A stretch of 58,262 bases of DNA, counting the filler, from Basidiobolus ranarum (lineage: Eukaryota): the NCBI GenBank assembly GCA_040143965.1. It is 9 parts of 9 records of this genome, joined end to end, with 100 filler letters (N's around TTAATTAATTAA, not from the genome) between each part and the next. Parts side by side here need not be neighbours in the genome. Positions count along the whole stretch, not along the records: positions 1 to 6,396 come from JASJQH010001325.1; 8 more parts are not named here. One strand, written 5' to 3'. Made by a program: the position numbers and the translations under genes. A model generated the notes under the pieces. That model had not been told where the DNA came from. It did no database searches and saw nothing but the letters and a program-made list of their open reading frames with translations. This document shows, in pieces, positions 1,457 to 51,887 of the stretch; positions within the stretch are counted from its first letter, which is position 1; the number at the start of each line of letters is the position of its first letter.

Positions 1457-2084
1457 ATGGCTTTCTTTAACACGTTAGTATGTCAAACGAAACGGTTACA
1501 TCACATCTCTGGAGACTTTATAGGTCAACTTATGGGTTCTAGAGGGATTATAATAAATAATGACCTATTTACGTTGAAAGCAAGACCATGGAAGTCTCAT
1601 GAAACTGTGTTAAGTATGTCAAGTGACTTTCCTATATATTACTTAGAGCATAAAGAATAACCCCTCTATTGACAAGCCAGAAAAACCCAAGAACCTATCG
1701 AGACGTTTAGAGTCACTTATTTGGTTTCTAAGAAGAAGATAAGTAAACTTGCAGTTGTACGTAATAGAGTTAGTAGACGTTTGAAACAAGCTGCGATAAA
1801 AGTCATGCCAGAGCACGCTAAATCAGGTGAATATAGAGAACTTTCCCCGGTTTTCTCATGTTTCCTTATTAACTAACGGTATTTCCATAGGTTTTGATTA
1901 CGCTTTTATTCCACGGTTGAGTGTTTTGGATGTAGAATGGAATACTTTAATAGAGGAGCTTAAAAAATCCTTTAGGAATTCTAAATTACAAGGAAAGTCC
2001 TCTCCTCCTCCCTCCATGAGGAATACTTATAATGGTATACGGAAAGAAAAAAGACCAGTTAACAACAAACCTAAGGGACAGTAG
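1457..2084 (+). CDS. rnpA: Bacterial-type ribonuclease P protein component (RnpA-like), nuclear-encoded, 3 exons (1457-1613, 1677-1826, 1891-2084), 166 aa, probably mitochondrial
   Basis: Hand-spliced product: MAFFNTLVCQTKRLHHISGDFIGQLMGSRGIIINNDLFTLKARPWKSHETVLTRKTQEPIETFRVTYLVSKKKISKLAVVRNRVSRRLKQAAIKVMPEHAKSGFDYAFIPRLSVLDVEWNTLIEELKKSFRNSKLQGKSSPPPSMRNTYNGIRKEKRPVNNKPKGQ. It has the RNR motif (SKK..KLAVVRNRVSRRLK), the preceding beta strand (RVTYLVSKK), the G.D.hh..R strand and the C-terminal helix. Intron 2 is GTGAAT..CTAAC..TAG. Intron 1 is GTATGT(1614)..AAG(1676), or alternatively GTTAAG(1609)..CAG(1680); both keep the frame. Confidence 0.88.
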
Positions 2085-2900: not shown

Positions 2901-5900
2901 ATGGCGGATTATGAGCTTGAAGACGAGCACTGTAGTGGATGCGGCTTAGTCATCAACGAAGGAAACGTCATCACCTTTGACGACAACGTTTGGCATGTTA
3001 AATGGTAAGCTTTTCCGCACCCATAGTGATAGTCAAAGTAGAGTTATTCCTTTCCAGCTGAATTTCTTTAACACGTTCCTAGTTTTCGGTGTTCTAGTTG
3101 TCATGCTAGTTTTCAAACGAATTCCAATATACTTATCTTAAATGAACAACCCGTTTGTGAAAGTTGTTCGTATACTTGTGAAGTATGTAAAAACCATATA
3201 CACGACCAAGCTATTTTAATAGGTGAAGTATAGAAAGTTTAGTAAGCCTCTTTTGTTATGGGAATAACTAACTTTGGTGAATATATATAGGTGATAAAGA
3301 GGTTCAAGCATTTCATCAACGTTGCTTTAAGTGTTATTCTTGTCACCAACCACTTGAACCTAATGAGTACACTTCTACTAATAAGGTAAGGGGAATTCAC
3401 CCGCACACCGTTCTCATCTCGTTACATGGTCAGGATTTATTGAAATATATACTCAGGGTTTTCAATGTTCGCAATGCCACTCTTCAGATAGTCTTCTGAG
3501 TGAGGAAATCTCACCTGAAATCTCCACTGATGTCGGTTCTTTTTGATGATTCTTACCTGTAGTATACCTCTATTGGGACCGAATTTAACCTTGGTTTAAT
3601 TGAATTTAGATGGAATCGTTATCTCAAGATGATGTGGAGTTCATTCCACCCATAGCTAATCCAATTGAAACCAATACATCCCCGTTAATCCCAGGTCGAC
3701 CACATATCGAACCACCAACTCGTAGTTCTTCCATCACTAAACGACCTACACGTTCCCATTCACTTCGTACACCTACTGAACAGAAAAGTAAATTTAAAAA
3801 ACGACAATCTATGATGCCTCCAAGATCTCATTCAGATCTGGGACTGGAAGGAATTCATGGACCACCAACACTTCCACCTTTACCATTTGTAGATGATGCG
3901 ATATTAGAAGAAAATATCAATCAAATCATCGAAGGAGTTAGGCAAACTCAATTGAATTCAGTGGAAGATCCCTCTTTGTCTTCGAGTGTAACCGATGAAG
4001 AGAAATCTTCAGAAGATAATACAGATATAGGTACCGATGTCATAGAAACATCCGATATTGTTGAATCCTCTCCCCTCGATATCTCTTCCGAAGTAATCTC
4101 CTTAAAGGTTAGTCCACACCATCTATTACGTCCCCCCTCCCCCTCGTTAGCTCACATCTTTTAAACTTGTGTAGGCTTTGAATAGACAACTGGTGGAGCA
4201 ACTGGAGAACGTAAGAGAGGATCTTCTGAAGGAAGCCAAATCACGTCAAGATATAGAAGAGAAATACAAAGTGTTGGAAGTAGAACGGGATCTTTTATTG
4301 CAATCTCATGAAGAATACACGAACCAAAAGAAAGAAGCTGTTAATATGTACAAGATACTTTCAGATAATATTGAACATTTATCAGTACAGAAAGAAGAAA
4401 TGGAAACCATAATACATGAATTACAACTTCAAAAAGAAAGCTTATATCTGGAAATCGATTCAATGTCTAAGAAGAAACAGATCGAGTTGGATAGGTAAAT
4501 AGCATTCTCATAGTGCTTTGAATGATGTATAGATATATGCTTACCATTCATATTAAGCTTGTCAATTTCGGATGAGAAAAAAAGAGAGTCTTTCATGATC
4601 CTATCGAATGGCTATCAAGACTCTAACTATGCAAACTTCAACAATCCTCTGGTAGTAGAGCCATTGTCACCCTCCTTCAACTATCCTTTGGAGAAGCCAA
4701 ATGACGAGAAATTACGCAGAAGGTCCGCAGTGGTCAACCAATACAAAGACACCGACCTAAGTCAGAGTCTTGCGATATCATACGAAGAGAGCGAATTCCC
4801 ATCGATGAACGAGAGTGAATATCAAAATACCACCCCTTACAACAATGCTCTGGAAGTACCAGCATCATCTAAAGCAGACGGCAAAAAGGAAAGCAAGAAA
4901 TTCAAATGGATGGGTGGAAGTTCATTTAAATCTAAAGGAAAGAGTACAAGTGCACCTAACTCTAATGAAAGAGAGCCAGGTAAAGTGATGGATGTCACAG
5001 GCGAGGTTTCAACTCTTTCCACTAATCATCTGACTTGGATTTCAGAACCAGATAACACTCCTCCAGCTTCAAATTCCAAAATCAAATACAAAAAGTCCAA
5101 TAGCAGCTCACTGCTTACTAACAAATCTCACACCTTTATCATTCACACGTTCATTCGTCCTTTGAAATGTGATCACTGTGGTGAGAAGATGTGGGGTCTA
5201 CAGAACAAAGAAATGAGATGCCAATGTAGGTTTTACTCTAACTTCCCTTCGTCCTACTGAACATTGGCTTACATTTTCTCATCTTATAGTGTGCGGATTC
5301 CATAGTCACATCAAGTGCTCCAACTTAGCAGCACAGGATTGCCCGGGACATATTCAAACGGAAAAAGAAGCATCTGGTGGTGGTTAGTGATTACTTTGTA
5401 ATAAGATAGTTTGATCGGCAGAATATTTATTGTACCCATTTTTTAGTCGTCAACATGTTTGGAAATGAGTTAGAGGAGCAATTGCGATTTGAAGGAAGAG
5501 ATATCCCTTTGATTGTCGAGTTGTGTATTGATGCGGTGGAGAAGAGAGGTAAGAAATGAATTGACGCATAGAGTTACATCAACTGGATACTGAACAGAGA
5601 AATCGGTATAGGTATAATGCTAGAAGGAATCTATCGTAAATCGGGACCTACGTCACAAATGCGAGATATTCAAAGCGCGCTGGCACGTGCAGCGAATGGA
5701 GAAGGACCACCGCCTAACCTGGAAGATCCAGAGGAGTTTAGTGACATCACCGCCGTTACCAGTGTAGTCAAACAATACTTCCGAGAACTCCCAGTTCCTT
5801 TACTTACGTATGATCTGTACAAGGATTTCATGGATGCTTTATGTAAGATCTTTAAAATAGCGAGCTAACCAAGAGCATCATCCTAACCATAATTCACCAC

Positions 5901-6366
5901 AGATATCGACGTCGAGGAAGAAAGATTGGCCCAATTCAAATCGATCATCAGTCAACTGCCCAAGGCCAACTACGATACTTTGAAATATTTGATCATGCAT
6001 CTGATTCGGTAACTATAAGAACCACCACTAGTATTATCCTTCGTATGACTAAACCCATTCCTACGTAGTGTACAAGAATATGAATCGGTGAATTTAATGG
6101 GAACCAAGAATTTAGCGGTGGTATTTGGACCTACATTAATGCGTAGTTTAGACCCTAGTCAAGAATTTTATGATACAGCACGAAAGAATGCCGTAGTGGA
6201 GTATTTATTATGTTGTGCGGAAGATTTATTCGAAGAAGAATATCAAATTTCACCAACGATAACTTTCGATTATCCAGAACAATATGAAAGTGAACTCGTA
6301 ACTCAAGAACATGATTTAATCGATCTAGCTACTGACTATGGTGATAATACAAAGATATACACTTGA
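2901..6366 (+). CDS. Rho GTPase-activating protein with two N-terminal LIM domains, coiled coil, C1 zinc finger and RhoGAP domain (Rga1/Rga2-like), multi-exon
   Basis: LIM motifs CSGCGLVINEGNVITFDDNVWHVKCFRCSSC and CEVCKNHI..FHQRCFKCYSC; coiled coil at 4178-4495; C1 motif HTFIIHTFIRPLKCDHCGEKMWG..RCQ; GAP motifs IPLIVELCIDAVEKRG, EGIYRKSG, KQYFRELPVPLLT and NLMGTKNLAVVFGPTL; GT-AG introns throughout. Confidence 0.93.
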
Positions 6367-6396: not shown

Positions 6397-6496
6397 NNNN
6401 NNNNNNNNNNNNNNNNNNNNNNNNNNNNNNNNNNNNNNNNTTAATTAATTAANNNNNNNNNNNNNNNNNNNNNNNNNNNNNNNNNNNNNNNNNNNN
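6397..6496. other. Artificial contig spacer
   Basis: N44-TTAATTAATTAA-N44, with stops in all six frames. Confidence 0.99.
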
Positions 6497-12885: not shown

Positions 12886-12985
12886 NNNNNNNNNNNNNNN
12901 NNNNNNNNNNNNNNNNNNNNNNNNNNNNNTTAATTAATTAANNNNNNNNNNNNNNNNNNNNNNNNNNNNNNNNNNNNNNNNNNNN
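12886..12985. other. Artificial contig spacer
   Basis: N44-TTAATTAATTAA-N44. Confidence 0.99.
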
Positions 12986-19374: not shown

Positions 19375-19474
19375 NNNNNNNNNNNNNNNNNNNNNNNNNN
19401 NNNNNNNNNNNNNNNNNNTTAATTAATTAANNNNNNNNNNNNNNNNNNNNNNNNNNNNNNNNNNNNNNNNNNNN
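19375..19474. other. Artificial contig spacer
   Basis: N44-TTAATTAATTAA-N44. Confidence 0.99.
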
Positions 19475-25860: not shown

Positions 25861-25960
25861 NNNNNNNNNNNNNNNNNNNNNNNNNNNNNNNNNNNNNNNN
25901 NNNNTTAATTAATTAANNNNNNNNNNNNNNNNNNNNNNNNNNNNNNNNNNNNNNNNNNNN
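25861..25960. other. Artificial contig spacer
   Basis: N44-TTAATTAATTAA-N44. Confidence 0.99.
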
Positions 25961-32345: not shown

Positions 32346-32445
32346 NNNNNNNNNNNNNNNNNNNNNNNNNNNNNNNNNNNNNNNNNNNNTTAATTAATTA
32401 ANNNNNNNNNNNNNNNNNNNNNNNNNNNNNNNNNNNNNNNNNNNN
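32346..32445. other. Artificial contig spacer
   Basis: N44-TTAATTAATTAA-N44. Confidence 0.99.
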
Positions 32446-38829: not shown

Positions 38830-38929
38830 NNNNNNNNNNNNNNNNNNNNNNNNNNNNNNNNNNNNNNNNNNNNTTAATTAATTAANNNNNNNNNNNNNNN
38901 NNNNNNNNNNNNNNNNNNNNNNNNNNNNN
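38830..38929. other. Artificial contig spacer
   Basis: N44-TTAATTAATTAA-N44. Confidence 0.99.
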
Positions 38930-45310: not shown

Positions 45311-45410
45311 NNNNNNNNNNNNNNNNNNNNNNNNNNNNNNNNNNNNNNNNNNNNTTAATTAATTAANNNNNNNNNNNNNNNNNNNNNNNNNNNNNNNNNN
45401 NNNNNNNNNN
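45311..45410. other. Artificial contig spacer
   Basis: N44-TTAATTAATTAA-N44. Confidence 0.99.
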
Positions 45411-51787: not shown

Positions 51788-51887
51788 NNNNNNNNNNNNN
51801 NNNNNNNNNNNNNNNNNNNNNNNNNNNNNNNTTAATTAATTAANNNNNNNNNNNNNNNNNNNNNNNNNNNNNNNNNNNNNNNNNNNN
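51788..51887. other. Artificial contig spacer
   Basis: N44-TTAATTAATTAA-N44. Confidence 0.99.

What the first reader, a model, noticed from the sequence alone, without database searches (positions are those of the whole stretch)
1457..2084. Spliced nuclear gene for a bacterial-type RNase P protein (RnpA) in a fungus: candidate subunit of an ancestral-type mitochondrial RNase P
Seen: the ORF track splits this locus into two meaningless peptides and omits exon 2. Removing two short GT-AG introns gives a 166-aa basic protein with FRVTYLVSKKKISKLAVVRNRVSRRLKQAAIKVMPEHAKSGFDYAFIPRLSVLDVEWNTLIEELKKSF. Established: bacterial RNase P is the rnpB RNA plus one RnpA protein with the RNR motif (K..AV.RNR..R.L+). 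The eukaryotic nuclear enzyme uses unrelated Pop/Rpp proteins, and budding-yeast mitochondrial RNase P uses the unrelated Rpm2. Several zygomycete mtDNAs encode bacteria-like rnpB RNAs. Nuclear RnpA-like genes are best known from prasinophyte algae and jakobids. Inference: the segment after the RNR helix (..PEHA..G.DY) resembles alphaproteobacterial RnpA. This would be an endosymbiont-derived gene retained in the nucleus whose product is imported to partner a mitochondrial P RNA, giving a minimal one-RNA/one-protein RNase P in a fungal mitochondrion. The spliceosomal introns and the intron-rich RhoGAP neighbour on the same contig argue against bacterial contamination. I cannot check whether fungal homologues are already described.
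Basis: partly seen in the sequence, partly recalled or inferred. Interest (0 to 1): 0.92.

Follow-up and report, generated by a model that had tools for sequence, protein, structure and literature searches.

The report
Bacterial-type RNase P protein gene in Basidiobolus
A three-exon nuclear gene of the fungus Basidiobolus encodes a protein of the bacterial RNase P subunit family (RnpA) that is shared by many early-diverging fungi, and it is the likely missing protein partner of their bacteria-like mitochondrial RNase P RNA.

Summary
Exons 1457-1613, 1677-1826 and 1891-2084 (+), joined across two GT-AG introns of 63 and 64 nt, give a 166-aa basic protein. A GenBank model of Basidiobolus ranarum (K7432_013422, "hypothetical protein") uses the same junctions but starts at Met26.

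It is an RnpA. It scores 45.4 bits on PF00825 (cut-off 22.3). The RNR motif is present. The AlphaFold model's 16 best PDB matches are all bacterial RnpA.

It is not a recent transfer. Orthologues occur in 19 named genera of zygomycete-grade fungi and form one clade with 99/99 support. Similarity favours Alphaproteobacteria, but an AU test does not reject another origin.

Mitochondrial import, a partner P RNA in Basidiobolus mtDNA and expression could not be tested. The N-terminal extension is short. Glomeromycotina carry the gene although their published mtDNAs list no rnpB.

Some orthologues are already auto-annotated as "ribonuclease P protein component". I found no paper describing fungal RnpA, but key papers were not readable. 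Verdict: a real new member of a known kind, of moderate interest.

The parts
1457..1613 (+). Exon 1: start codon, a short N-terminal extension, helix alpha1 and strand beta1 of the RnpA fold. It ends with the first base of a split Thr codon.
   Evidence: Sequence read and joined by coordinates. Residues 26-52 are identical to the start of GenBank model P0001.
1511..1537 (+). Probable helix alpha1 (residues about 19-27 of the 166-aa model). It contains Met26 (1532-1534), the start codon used by the GenBank model.
   Evidence: In the alignment this stretch pairs with residues 84-92 of the Syncephalis fuscata orthologue P0005. Those residues form a confident helix just before beta1 in its AlphaFold model. 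It also pairs with the N-terminal 'RL..R.DF' segment of bacterial RnpA taken from loci. This part is inferred, not folded for the window's own 166-aa product.
1614..1676 (+). Intron 1, 63 nt, GTATGT...AG, phase 1.
   Evidence: The same junction is used by GenBank model P0001. No RNA-seq check was possible.
1677..1826 (+). Exon 2: strands beta2 and beta3 and the RNR helix alpha2.
   Evidence: Alone it scores 27.2 bits on PF00825, profile positions 40-74. It is 82% identical to the partial B. meristosporus model P0004.
1751..1780 (+). RNR motif (A-V-V-R-N-R-V-S-R-R), the P RNA-binding helix of RnpA.
   Evidence: A53, V54, R56, N57, R61 and R62 of P0001 are the only columns at least 90% conserved in the 126-sequence alignment A1. 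They lie in helix H53-74 of the model.
1827..1890 (+). Intron 2, 64 nt, GTGAAT...CTAAC...AG, phase 1.
   Evidence: same junction as P0001. The partial B. meristosporus model P0004 ends in ...KSGE. That is what read-through of this donor gives here (ORF 1673-1876), which suggests the same exon boundary.
1891..2084 (+). Exon 3: strand beta4, helix alpha3, a basic low-confidence C-terminal tail and the TAG stop.
   Evidence: The model has E79-85, H87-90 and H94-107, then pLDDT 53-72 from residue about 111 of P0001.

Best explanation
The gene encodes the protein cofactor of a bacterial-type, RNA-based RNase P. The product most likely works in the mitochondrion.

Proposed mechanism: the nuclear gene is transcribed and two short spliceosomal introns are removed. 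The 166-aa basic protein is made in the cytosol and imported into mitochondria. There its RNR helix (encoded at 1751-1780) binds the catalytic domain of a mitochondrially encoded P RNA (rnpB). The cleft formed by helix alpha1 and the central beta-sheet holds the 5' leader of mitochondrial pre-tRNAs. This raises substrate and Mg2+ affinity, so that the RNA cleaves the leader.

Shown here: the gene structure, RnpA family membership, the RNR motif, the RnpA fold, conservation as a single clade across zygomycete-grade fungi, and greatest similarity to alphaproteobacterial RnpA among the groups sampled.

Inferred: expression, import, the partner RNA in Basidiobolus, and catalytic stimulation. The roles of the RNR helix and the cleft are taken from the review PMC4919922 (passages seen).

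The GenBank start at Met26 falls inside helix alpha1.
For: Family:
- PF00825 scores 45.4 bits, E 9.5e-12, against a cut-off of 22.3, covering profile positions 25-107 of 109.
- TIGR00188 rnpA (equivalog) scores 38.5 against a cut-off of 38.35.
- By sequence against the PDB, RnpA chains match weakly: 36uk_B at E 0.0018 and B. subtilis 1a6f at E 0.0034.

Fold:
- The AlphaFold model of P0001 has pLDDT 88.3 and pTM 0.74.
- The 16 best Foldseek PDB matches are all RnpA from S. aureus, B. subtilis, T. maritima (including the holoenzyme 3q1q) and E. coli. E-values run from 6.8e-7 to 1.5e-3, target TM 0.52-0.69, about 107 aligned columns. The next hits are EF-G at E 6e-3 or worse.

Motif: the RNR residues are the only columns at least 90% conserved in 126 sequences, and they are present here.

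Conservation:
- phmmer over 1.84 billion representatives gave 487 hits at E <= 1e-3. The best 9 had E <= 1e-10.
- Of the first 10 hits looked up, 9 carry organism names and all 9 are fungi.
- 8 of 10 further members of the fungal-side group are named fungi.
- Further named fungi appear.
- 5 of 6 orthologues tested hit PF00825 above its cut-off.
- The ESM Atlas holds a 77-member all-eukaryote cluster, commonest phylum Zoopagomycota, with PF00825 on 82% of members and TM 0.72 to this protein.

Single origin: in the careful ML tree (101 rows x 123 columns), 28 fungal rows plus 5 unnamed rows form one side of a branch with UFBoot/SH-aLRT 99/99.

Alphaproteobacterial leaning:
- 28 of 29 fungal sequences score best against the alphaproteobacterial sample, compared with three other bacterial samples of about 30 each.
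- 94 of 111 non-fungal top hits are closest to that same sample.
- In the tree, fungi plus all 31 alphaproteobacterial rows form one side of a branch, with weak support of 60/32.

Link to mitochondrial P RNA (literature, passages seen):
- rnpB = 1 in Smittium culisetae, Mortierella verticillata and Rhizopus oryzae (PMC3630166, Table 1).
- Fungi lack PRORP (PMC10941002).
- Precedents for a nuclear RnpA paired with an organellar P RNA exist in Ostreococcus (PMC4919922) and Andalucia (PMC7050145).

Targeting: several orthologues have long N-terminal extensions that fold with low confidence. One example is the first 80 residues or so of P0005.
Against: - There is no expression or splicing evidence.
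- No Basidiobolus mitochondrial genome could be searched. No whole genome is held, the window has 0 Rfam matches, and no paper on Basidiobolus rnpB or its mitogenome content was found.
- In this gene only about 11-18 residues precede helix alpha1. The Mucorales gene models (Chlamydoabsidia, Cokeromyces, Syncephalastrum, Pilaira, Phycomyces) show almost no extension. No targeting predictor was available.
- Glomeromycotina (Gigaspora, Rhizophagus) have the protein, but the published gene tables give rnpB = 0 for Glomus and Gigaspora mtDNAs. Either the RNA was missed there or the protein can do something else.
- The TIGR00188 score is only 0.15 bits above its cut-off.
- The endosymbiotic origin is not established. 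Constraining fungi with the gamma-type Pseudomonadota costs only 8.56 lnL units (AU p 0.339). Only four bacterial groups were sampled.
Confidence: 0.7

Rival explanations
1. Same protein and same function, but a different origin. The gene entered an early fungal ancestor by horizontal transfer from some bacterium, rather than descending from the mitochondrial endosymbiont.
For: The AU test does not reject a tree joining the fungal clade to the gamma-type Pseudomonadota sample (delta lnL 8.56, p 0.339). Support for fungi plus Alphaproteobacteria is weak at 60/32. No named Dikarya, chytrid or non-fungal opisthokont homologue was seen among the names retrieved.
Against: 28 of 29 fungal sequences and 94 of 111 top bacterial hits lean towards the alphaproteobacterial sample. 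Jakobids and prasinophytes also keep a nuclear RnpA for organellar P RNAs, so retention from the endosymbiont has precedent. Only 150 of 487 hits were listed and only some were named, so absence elsewhere in eukaryotes is not shown.
Confidence: 0.2
2. The protein keeps the RnpA fold but acts without a mitochondrial P RNA. It might be a general RNA-binding or RNA-turnover factor, or a partner of another RNA.
For: Gigaspora and Rhizophagus keep the gene, although Glomus and Gigaspora mtDNAs are tabulated with rnpB = 0 (PMC3630166, Table 1). This gene and the Mucorales models have little N-terminal extension. One PDB entry title (6ov1) refers to an mRNA-degradation activity of S. aureus RnpA.
Against: The RNR motif, which binds P RNA in bacteria, is the most conserved feature of the fungal family. 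The named carriers belong to fungal groups whose mtDNAs were reported to carry rnpB. Very reduced mitochondrial P RNAs, such as the 188-nt one in Smittium, are easy to miss in annotation.
Confidence: 0.12
3. Recent horizontal transfer from a bacterium into Basidiobolus alone.
For: The protein family is otherwise almost entirely bacterial. From my own recollection, not checked here, Basidiobolus genomes are reported to be rich in bacterial-derived genes.
Against: Orthologues occur in 19 named genera of other early-diverging fungi and form one 99/99 clade with the window's protein. The best matches are fungal at 35-52% identity, ahead of any bacterium. The gene has two spliceosomal introns and host-like GC. 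B. meristosporus has the gene, apparently with the same exon-2 boundary.
Confidence: 0.02
4. Bacterial contamination, an assembly artefact or a dead pseudogene.
For: The contig is short (6396 bp) and there is no expression evidence.
Against: The reading frame is open only after removal of two canonical introns. A C1-RhoGAP gene split by introns lies on the same contig. The frame is intact, and the functional motif is conserved across the fungal clade.
Confidence: 0.04

Closest known systems
Bacterial RNase P protein RnpA (C5 protein; PF00825, TIGR00188). Solved examples include B. subtilis 1a6f, T. maritima 1nz0 and 3q1q, S. aureus 6d1r and E. coli 2ljp.
   Same: It has the same family by profile scores. 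The predicted fold matches over about 107 columns at 2.2-2.8 A rmsd for the best crystal structures. The RNR motif is the same, and the core is of similar size and basic.
   Different: It is encoded in a eukaryotic nucleus with two spliceosomal introns. It has no rpmH/yidC-type neighbours; the neighbour is a C1-RhoGAP gene. The fungal clade has an insertion between beta1 and beta2 (W...K.....P...R in the consensus) and a basic C-terminal tail of about 35 residues modelled at low confidence. Identity to solved RnpA is only 18-28%.
Nuclear-encoded bacterial-type RnpA of prasinophyte algae (Ostreococcus tauri; Lai et al. 2011, known to me only through PMC4919922 and PMC7050145).
   Same: It is a nuclear gene for a bacterial-type P protein in an organism whose organelle genomes encode P RNA. 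The Ostreococcus protein is reported to work with those RNAs in vitro and to complement an E. coli mutant (passage in PMC4919922).
   Different: The lineage differs (fungi, Opisthokonta), and no biochemical data exist here. I did not retrieve the algal sequences, so their relationship to the fungal clade is untested.
Mitochondrion-targeted RnpA of the jakobid Andalucia godoyi (PMC7050145).
   Same: It is a nuclear RnpA paired with a bacterial-type mitochondrial P RNA and is listed there as an ancestral mitochondrial feature.
   Different: Jakobids have the most bacteria-like mtDNAs. Finding the same arrangement in fungi would extend it to opisthokonts. Targeting is predicted in Andalucia and not tested here.
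Yeast mitochondrial RNase P protein Rpm2.
   Same: It has the proposed role: a protein partner of a mitochondrially encoded P RNA in a fungus.
   Different: Rpm2 is a 105-kDa protein with no homology to any other RNase P protein, and it is restricted to budding yeasts (PMC3790967). The window's protein is a small RnpA homologue.

Membership tests
RnpA (Pfam PF00825 Ribonuclease_P) | Score above Pfam's gathering threshold. | tested here: met
   P0001 scores 45.4 bits against 22.3, E 9.5e-12, covering profile positions 25-107 of 109. Exon 2 alone scores 27.2 bits.
RnpA (NCBIfam TIGR00188, equivalog) | Score above the curated equivalog cut-off. | tested here: met
   38.5 bits against 38.35, so only marginally above. 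This was measured on the N-terminally shorter GenBank model P0001.
RnpA | RNR motif on helix alpha2, the P RNA-binding region. | tested here: met
   A-V-V-R-N-R-V-S-R-R is encoded at 1751-1780. A53, V54, R56, N57, R61 and R62 are at least 90% conserved in 126 aligned sequences. They lie in helix 53-74 of the model. The motif's role is taken from PMC4919922.
RnpA | [quoted passage not shown] | tested here: met
   The P0001 model has three strands, then the long helix, a strand and a helix. All 16 best PDB matches are RnpA, with target TM up to 0.69. The first helix is cut off in P0001. It is seen in the orthologue model (H84-92 of P0005) and aligned to window residues about 19-27. The window's own 166-aa product was not folded.
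RnpA | Binds P RNA and stimulates pre-tRNA 5' cleavage; complements rnpA mutants. | not testable with these tools
   This needs biochemistry or genetics.
Organellar RnpA of eukaryotes (Ostreococcus / Andalucia type) | Nuclear-encoded. | tested here: met
   The gene has two GT-AG introns. An intron-split C1-RhoGAP gene lies on the same contig. CDS GC is 36.7% against 37.6% for the contig.
Organellar RnpA of eukaryotes (Ostreococcus / Andalucia type) | The organelle genome of the same organism encodes a P RNA. | not testable with these tools
   No genome is held for the window. The window has 0 Rfam matches. No paper on Basidiobolus rnpB was found. Other zygomycete mtDNAs have rnpB, but Glomus and Gigaspora are tabulated as 0.
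Organellar RnpA of eukaryotes (Ostreococcus / Andalucia type) | N-terminal organelle-targeting sequence. | tested here: inconclusive
   About 11-18 residues precede alpha1. The first acidic residue is at position 20, and K12 and R13 are present. Several orthologues have extensions of 50 aa or more, and Mucorales models have none. No targeting predictor was available.

The most novel reading that the evidence does not exclude
Zygomycete-grade fungi, Basidiobolus included, still run the ancestral two-part bacterial RNase P (mitochondrial P RNA plus a nuclear-encoded, imported RnpA) in their mitochondria. This would be the first such case in opisthokonts. It would name the long-unknown protein subunit of fungal mitochondrial RNase P outside budding yeast. 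The gene was then lost in Dikarya, where P RNA degenerated and other proteins took over. A bolder corollary follows from Glomeromycotina, which keep RnpA without an annotated mitochondrial rnpB. They either hide a very reduced P RNA, or they show RnpA working with another RNA.
Probability: 0.55. Interest if true: 0.72.

Novelty: new member of a known kind. Interest (0 to 1): 0.55.

Why it matters
A 2012 review states that yeast Rpm2 was the only protein component identified for any organellar RNA-based RNase P. It also states that zygomycete mitochondrial P RNAs are close to the bacterial consensus (PMC3790967). A conserved nuclear RnpA in exactly these fungi gives a concrete candidate for their protein subunit.

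That makes a minimal one-RNA/one-protein mitochondrial RNase P directly testable in culturable fungi such as Mucorales, Mortierella and Basidiobolus. It also gives a marker for when the bacterial-type enzyme was replaced during fungal evolution.

On the practical side, the finding corrects the start codon of the GenBank model. It also flags misjoined or truncated models of the orthologues.

Tried and rejected
Steps that were unavailable or found nothing:
- Whole-genome search of the window's own assembly for PF00825 and rnpB: no genome is held.
- Rfam scan of all 58 kb: 0 matches, so none of the nine joined contigs carries a recognisable P RNA.
- Earlier notes of this scan: nothing by place, words or sequence.

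Searches that gave little:
- Word-indexed protein searches with exon 2 or with P0001 found only the protein itself. The exhaustive phmmer search was needed.
- The search for related loci with the single protein gave only 8 bacterial loci, biased towards AT-rich genomes. I should have used an alignment. I compensated with the genome search samples.
- Organism names for bacterial top hits: 9 of 10 looked up were unnamed metagenome proteins, and the tenth turned out to be the fungus Dimargaris. Bacterial affinity therefore rests on four labelled samples only.

Literature:
None returned a paper that describes a fungal RnpA in its title, abstract or the passages I read.
- Lechner et al. 2015, Seif et al. 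2005 and Jovanovic et al. 2002 are not held. I did not try to fetch Lai et al. 2011 or Schencking et al. 2020.
- Supplements were not consulted.

Rejected readings:
- Contamination and Basidiobolus-specific HGT (see rival explanations).
- An extra upstream mini-exon. I looked by eye at 1203-1441 and saw a possible ATG...GTGAGT donor and an AG acceptor. Without transcripts this is no better than chance in AT-rich DNA, so I do not propose it.
Full report
**What is in the sequence**

- The ATG is at 1457.
- Exon 1 runs to 1613.
- Intron 1 is 63 nt (GTATGT...AG).
- Exon 2 is 1677-1826.
- Intron 2 is 64 nt (GTGAAT...CTAAC...AG).
- Exon 3 runs to the TAG at 2082-2084.

The joined CDS is 501 nt and gives a 166-aa protein with pI 10.7. 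Both introns are phase 1. The three exons sit in three different stop-to-stop ORFs, so an ORF list cannot show the gene.

An independent gene model exists. P0001 (GenBank K7432_013422, "hypothetical protein", Basidiobolus ranarum, 141 aa, on a 6396-bp contig) is identical to residues 26-166 of the joined product. It therefore uses the same two junctions.

No RNA-seq check was possible.

**Context**

The window is not one contig. It has sixteen runs of 44 N, in pairs around TTAATTAATTAA, spaced about 6.4 kb apart. These divide it into nine pieces. The gene's real contig is 1-6396, which matches the contig length recorded for P0001.

That contig also carries a C1 domain (4526-5257). RhoGAP profile pieces 15-84 and 117-146 lie in separate ORFs at 5572-5865 and 6049-6363. 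This is an intron-split eukaryotic gene.

CDS GC (36.7%) matches the contig (37.6%). A six-frame scan of the window with a profile built from alignment A1 finds only the three exon ORFs. Rfam finds nothing in the window. Contamination is excluded.

**Identity**

By sequence:
- Exon 2 alone passes Pfam's threshold for PF00825 (27.2 against 22.3 bits).
- P0001 scores 45.4 bits, E 9.5e-12.
- P0001 just passes the NCBIfam rnpA equivalog (38.5 against 38.35).
- Against PDB sequences it matches RnpA chains weakly: E 0.0018 for 36uk_B and E 0.0034 for B. subtilis 1a6f.

By structure:
- An AlphaFold model built on a 126-sequence alignment is confident (pLDDT 88.3, pTM 0.74; the tail from about residue 111 is low).
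- Its 16 best Foldseek PDB matches are all bacterial RnpA, including the T. maritima holoenzyme chain 3q1q_A. E-values run from 6.8e-7 to 1.5e-3 and target TM is up to 0.69.
- Unrelated EF-G domains follow at E 6e-3 or worse.

By motif:
- The only columns at least 90% conserved across the 126 sequences are A53, V54, R56, N57, R61 and R62 of P0001.
- These form the RNR motif, encoded at 1751-1780, on the long helix.

**Start codon**

P0001's model lacks the first helix. In the alignment, window residues about 13-28 (exon 1, upstream of and including Met26) line up with two things:
- the N-terminal "RL..R.DF" segment of bacterial RnpA taken from genome loci;
- residues 84-92 of the Syncephalis fuscata orthologue.

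In the AlphaFold model of that orthologue (pLDDT 79 overall, above 90 from about residue 81 to 200), residues 84-92 form helix alpha1 just before strand beta1. The first 80 residues or so are of low confidence.

The GenBank start at Met26 (1532-1534) therefore falls inside alpha1.

The consequence cuts the other way for targeting. Only about 11-18 residues precede the fold. They carry K12 and R13 and no acidic residue before position 20. That is short for a presequence, and I had no predictor.

**Relatives**

Word-indexed searches found only the protein itself. An exhaustive phmmer search of 1.84 billion representatives gave 487 hits at E <= 1e-3, of which the best 150 were listed.

The top hits (35-52% identity, mostly covering the query from about residue 8) are fungal:
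- Of the first ten looked up, nine are named and all nine are fungi: Syncephalis plumigaleata, S. fuscata, Gigaspora rosea, G. margarita, Rhizophagus clarus, Smittium culicis, Calcarisporiella thermophila, Chlamydoabsidia padenii and a partial Basidiobolus meristosporus model.
- Eight of ten further picks from the fungal side of a first tree are Piptocephalis, Podila, Entomortierella (with Haplosporangium), Syncephalastrum, Neoconidiobolus, Umbelopsis, Cunninghamella and Cokeromyces. The other two are unnamed.
- Dimargaris turned up among picks I had taken for bacterial.
- A profile search added Umbelopsis ramanniana, U. isabellina, Phycomyces and Pilaira.

That makes 19 named genera. NCBI files the four I looked up under Basidiobolomycota, Calcarisporiellomycota, Kickxellomycota and Zoopagomycota. 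Placing the rest in Mucoromycota, Mortierellomycota, Glomeromycota and Entomophthoromycota is my own knowledge.

I saw no Dikarya or chytrid name. Only part of the hit list was named, so absence is not shown.

Other points about the orthologues:
- Three are already auto-named "ribonuclease P protein component" (Smittium culicis, Rhizophagus clarus, Gigaspora margarita).
- Five of six tested pass PF00825.
- The ESM Atlas has a 77-member all-eukaryote cluster, commonest phylum Zoopagomycota, with PF00825 on 82% of members.

**Origin: sampling**

I drew labelled bacterial RnpA samples with the genome search and PF00825:
- The class of the genome behind L005 (record title "Alphaproteobacteria bacterium"): 41 of 41 genomes matched. 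I used 29 loci plus L011 and L012. L028, from an unpublished genome, was left out.
- The same genome's phylum: 61 of 61 matched. I used the 29 best-scoring loci other than L010. Their class is unknown and they look gamma-type.
- The phylum of a Ureaplasma MAG: 40 of 40 scored genomes matched.
- The phylum of a Paceibacterota MAG: 38 of 41 matched.

**Origin: results**

Similarity favours Alphaproteobacteria:
- 28 of 29 fungal sequences score best against the alphaproteobacterial sample. One, P0063, scores best against the Patescibacteria sample.
- 94 of the 111 non-fungal top hits are closest to that same sample. Ten are closest to the Pseudomonadota sample, six to Patescibacteria and one to none.

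The careful ML tree had 101 rows and 123 columns. It included all 31 alphaproteobacterial rows, 15 of 29 Pseudomonadota rows, 10 of 30 rows of the Ureaplasma MAG's phylum and 12 of 30 Patescibacteria rows. Fungal fragments and near-duplicates were left out. The bootstrap had not fully settled.
- The 28 fungal rows plus 5 unnamed rows form one side of a branch at 99/99.
- Fungi plus all 31 alphaproteobacterial rows form one side of a branch, but only at 60/32.
- Forcing fungi together with the gamma-type sample costs 8.56 lnL units and is not rejected (AU p 0.339).

So a single, old origin within fungi is well supported. An alphaproteobacterial, and hence endosymbiotic, source is favoured by similarity but not proven.

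**Function**

The literature I could read states the following:
- Fungi lack PRORP (PMC10941002, passages).
- Rpm2 is confined to budding yeasts. In 2012 it was the only protein known for any organellar RNA-based RNase P (PMC3790967, passages).
- All zygomycete mtDNAs then sequenced carry rnpB, mostly close to the bacterial consensus. None is known in basidiomycetes or chytrids (PMC3790967).
- Nuclear RnpA genes accompany organellar P RNAs in Ostreococcus and Andalucia.

The distribution found here matches the rnpB-bearing fungal groups. The simplest reading is that this protein is the imported cofactor of the mitochondrial P RNA.

Two facts resist that reading:
- The published gene table gives rnpB = 0 for Glomus and Gigaspora mtDNAs, against 1 for Smittium, Mortierella and Rhizopus (PMC3630166, Table 1). 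Yet Gigaspora and Rhizophagus keep the protein.
- N-terminal extensions are long in some orthologues but short or absent here and in the Mucorales models. Some of those models may be truncated.

I could not examine any Basidiobolus mtDNA.

**Novelty**

The kind is known: bacterial-type RnpA encoded in a eukaryotic nucleus for an organellar RNase P. The fungal proteins are in public databases, some with automatic RnpA names.

Ten literature searches found no paper describing them. The most relevant surveys were not readable: Lechner 2015 and Seif 2005 are not held, and I did not try to fetch Lai 2011 or Schencking 2020. I put roughly one chance in three on fungal RnpA having been noted in print already.

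I rate it a new member of a known kind. Interest is moderate because it turns an old open point, the protein make-up of fungal mitochondrial RNase P outside yeast, into a simple set of experiments.

Noticed in passing
window 6397-6496, 12886-12985, 19375-19474, 25861-25960, 32346-32445, 38830-38929, 45311-45410, 51788-51887: The window is nine short contigs of about 6.4 kb each, joined by N44-TTAATTAATTAA-N44 spacers. Genes on different pieces are not physical neighbours.
   Followed up: yes
P0003, P0006, P0008 (Gigaspora, Rhizophagus proteins); PMC3630166 Table 1: Glomeromycotina keep an RnpA orthologue, although the published gene tables list no rnpB in Glomus or Gigaspora mtDNAs. Either a reduced P RNA was missed there or the protein has another partner.
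   Followed up: partly
window 1532-1534 (Met26 of the 166-aa model): The GenBank model K7432_013422 starts at an internal Met inside the predicted first helix of the fold. The upstream ATG at 1457 restores it.
   Followed up: yes
P0004 (Basidiobolus meristosporus, partial, 58 aa): This partial model covers only the equivalent of exon 2. It ends in the residues expected from reading through the intron-2 donor, so the B. meristosporus gene is probably mis-modelled but has the same exon boundary.
   Followed up: partly
P0009 (Calcarisporiella, 668 aa) and P0020 (unnamed, 410 aa): These are long gene models that join the RnpA domain to a PALP + CBS enzyme (P0009) or to a Sec63 Brl domain (P0020). 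They are probably neighbouring genes fused by the gene caller rather than true fusions.
   Followed up: partly
P0012, P0026, P0113, P0127, P0129: These five unnamed proteins from run assemblies form a 100/99 clade nested among the fungal RnpA rows. Their organisms are unknown.
   Followed up: partly
window 4526-6363 (+): A multi-exon gene with a C1 (phorbol-ester/DAG-type) domain followed by a RhoGAP domain runs to the end of the 6396-bp contig, where it is probably cut off.
   Followed up: partly
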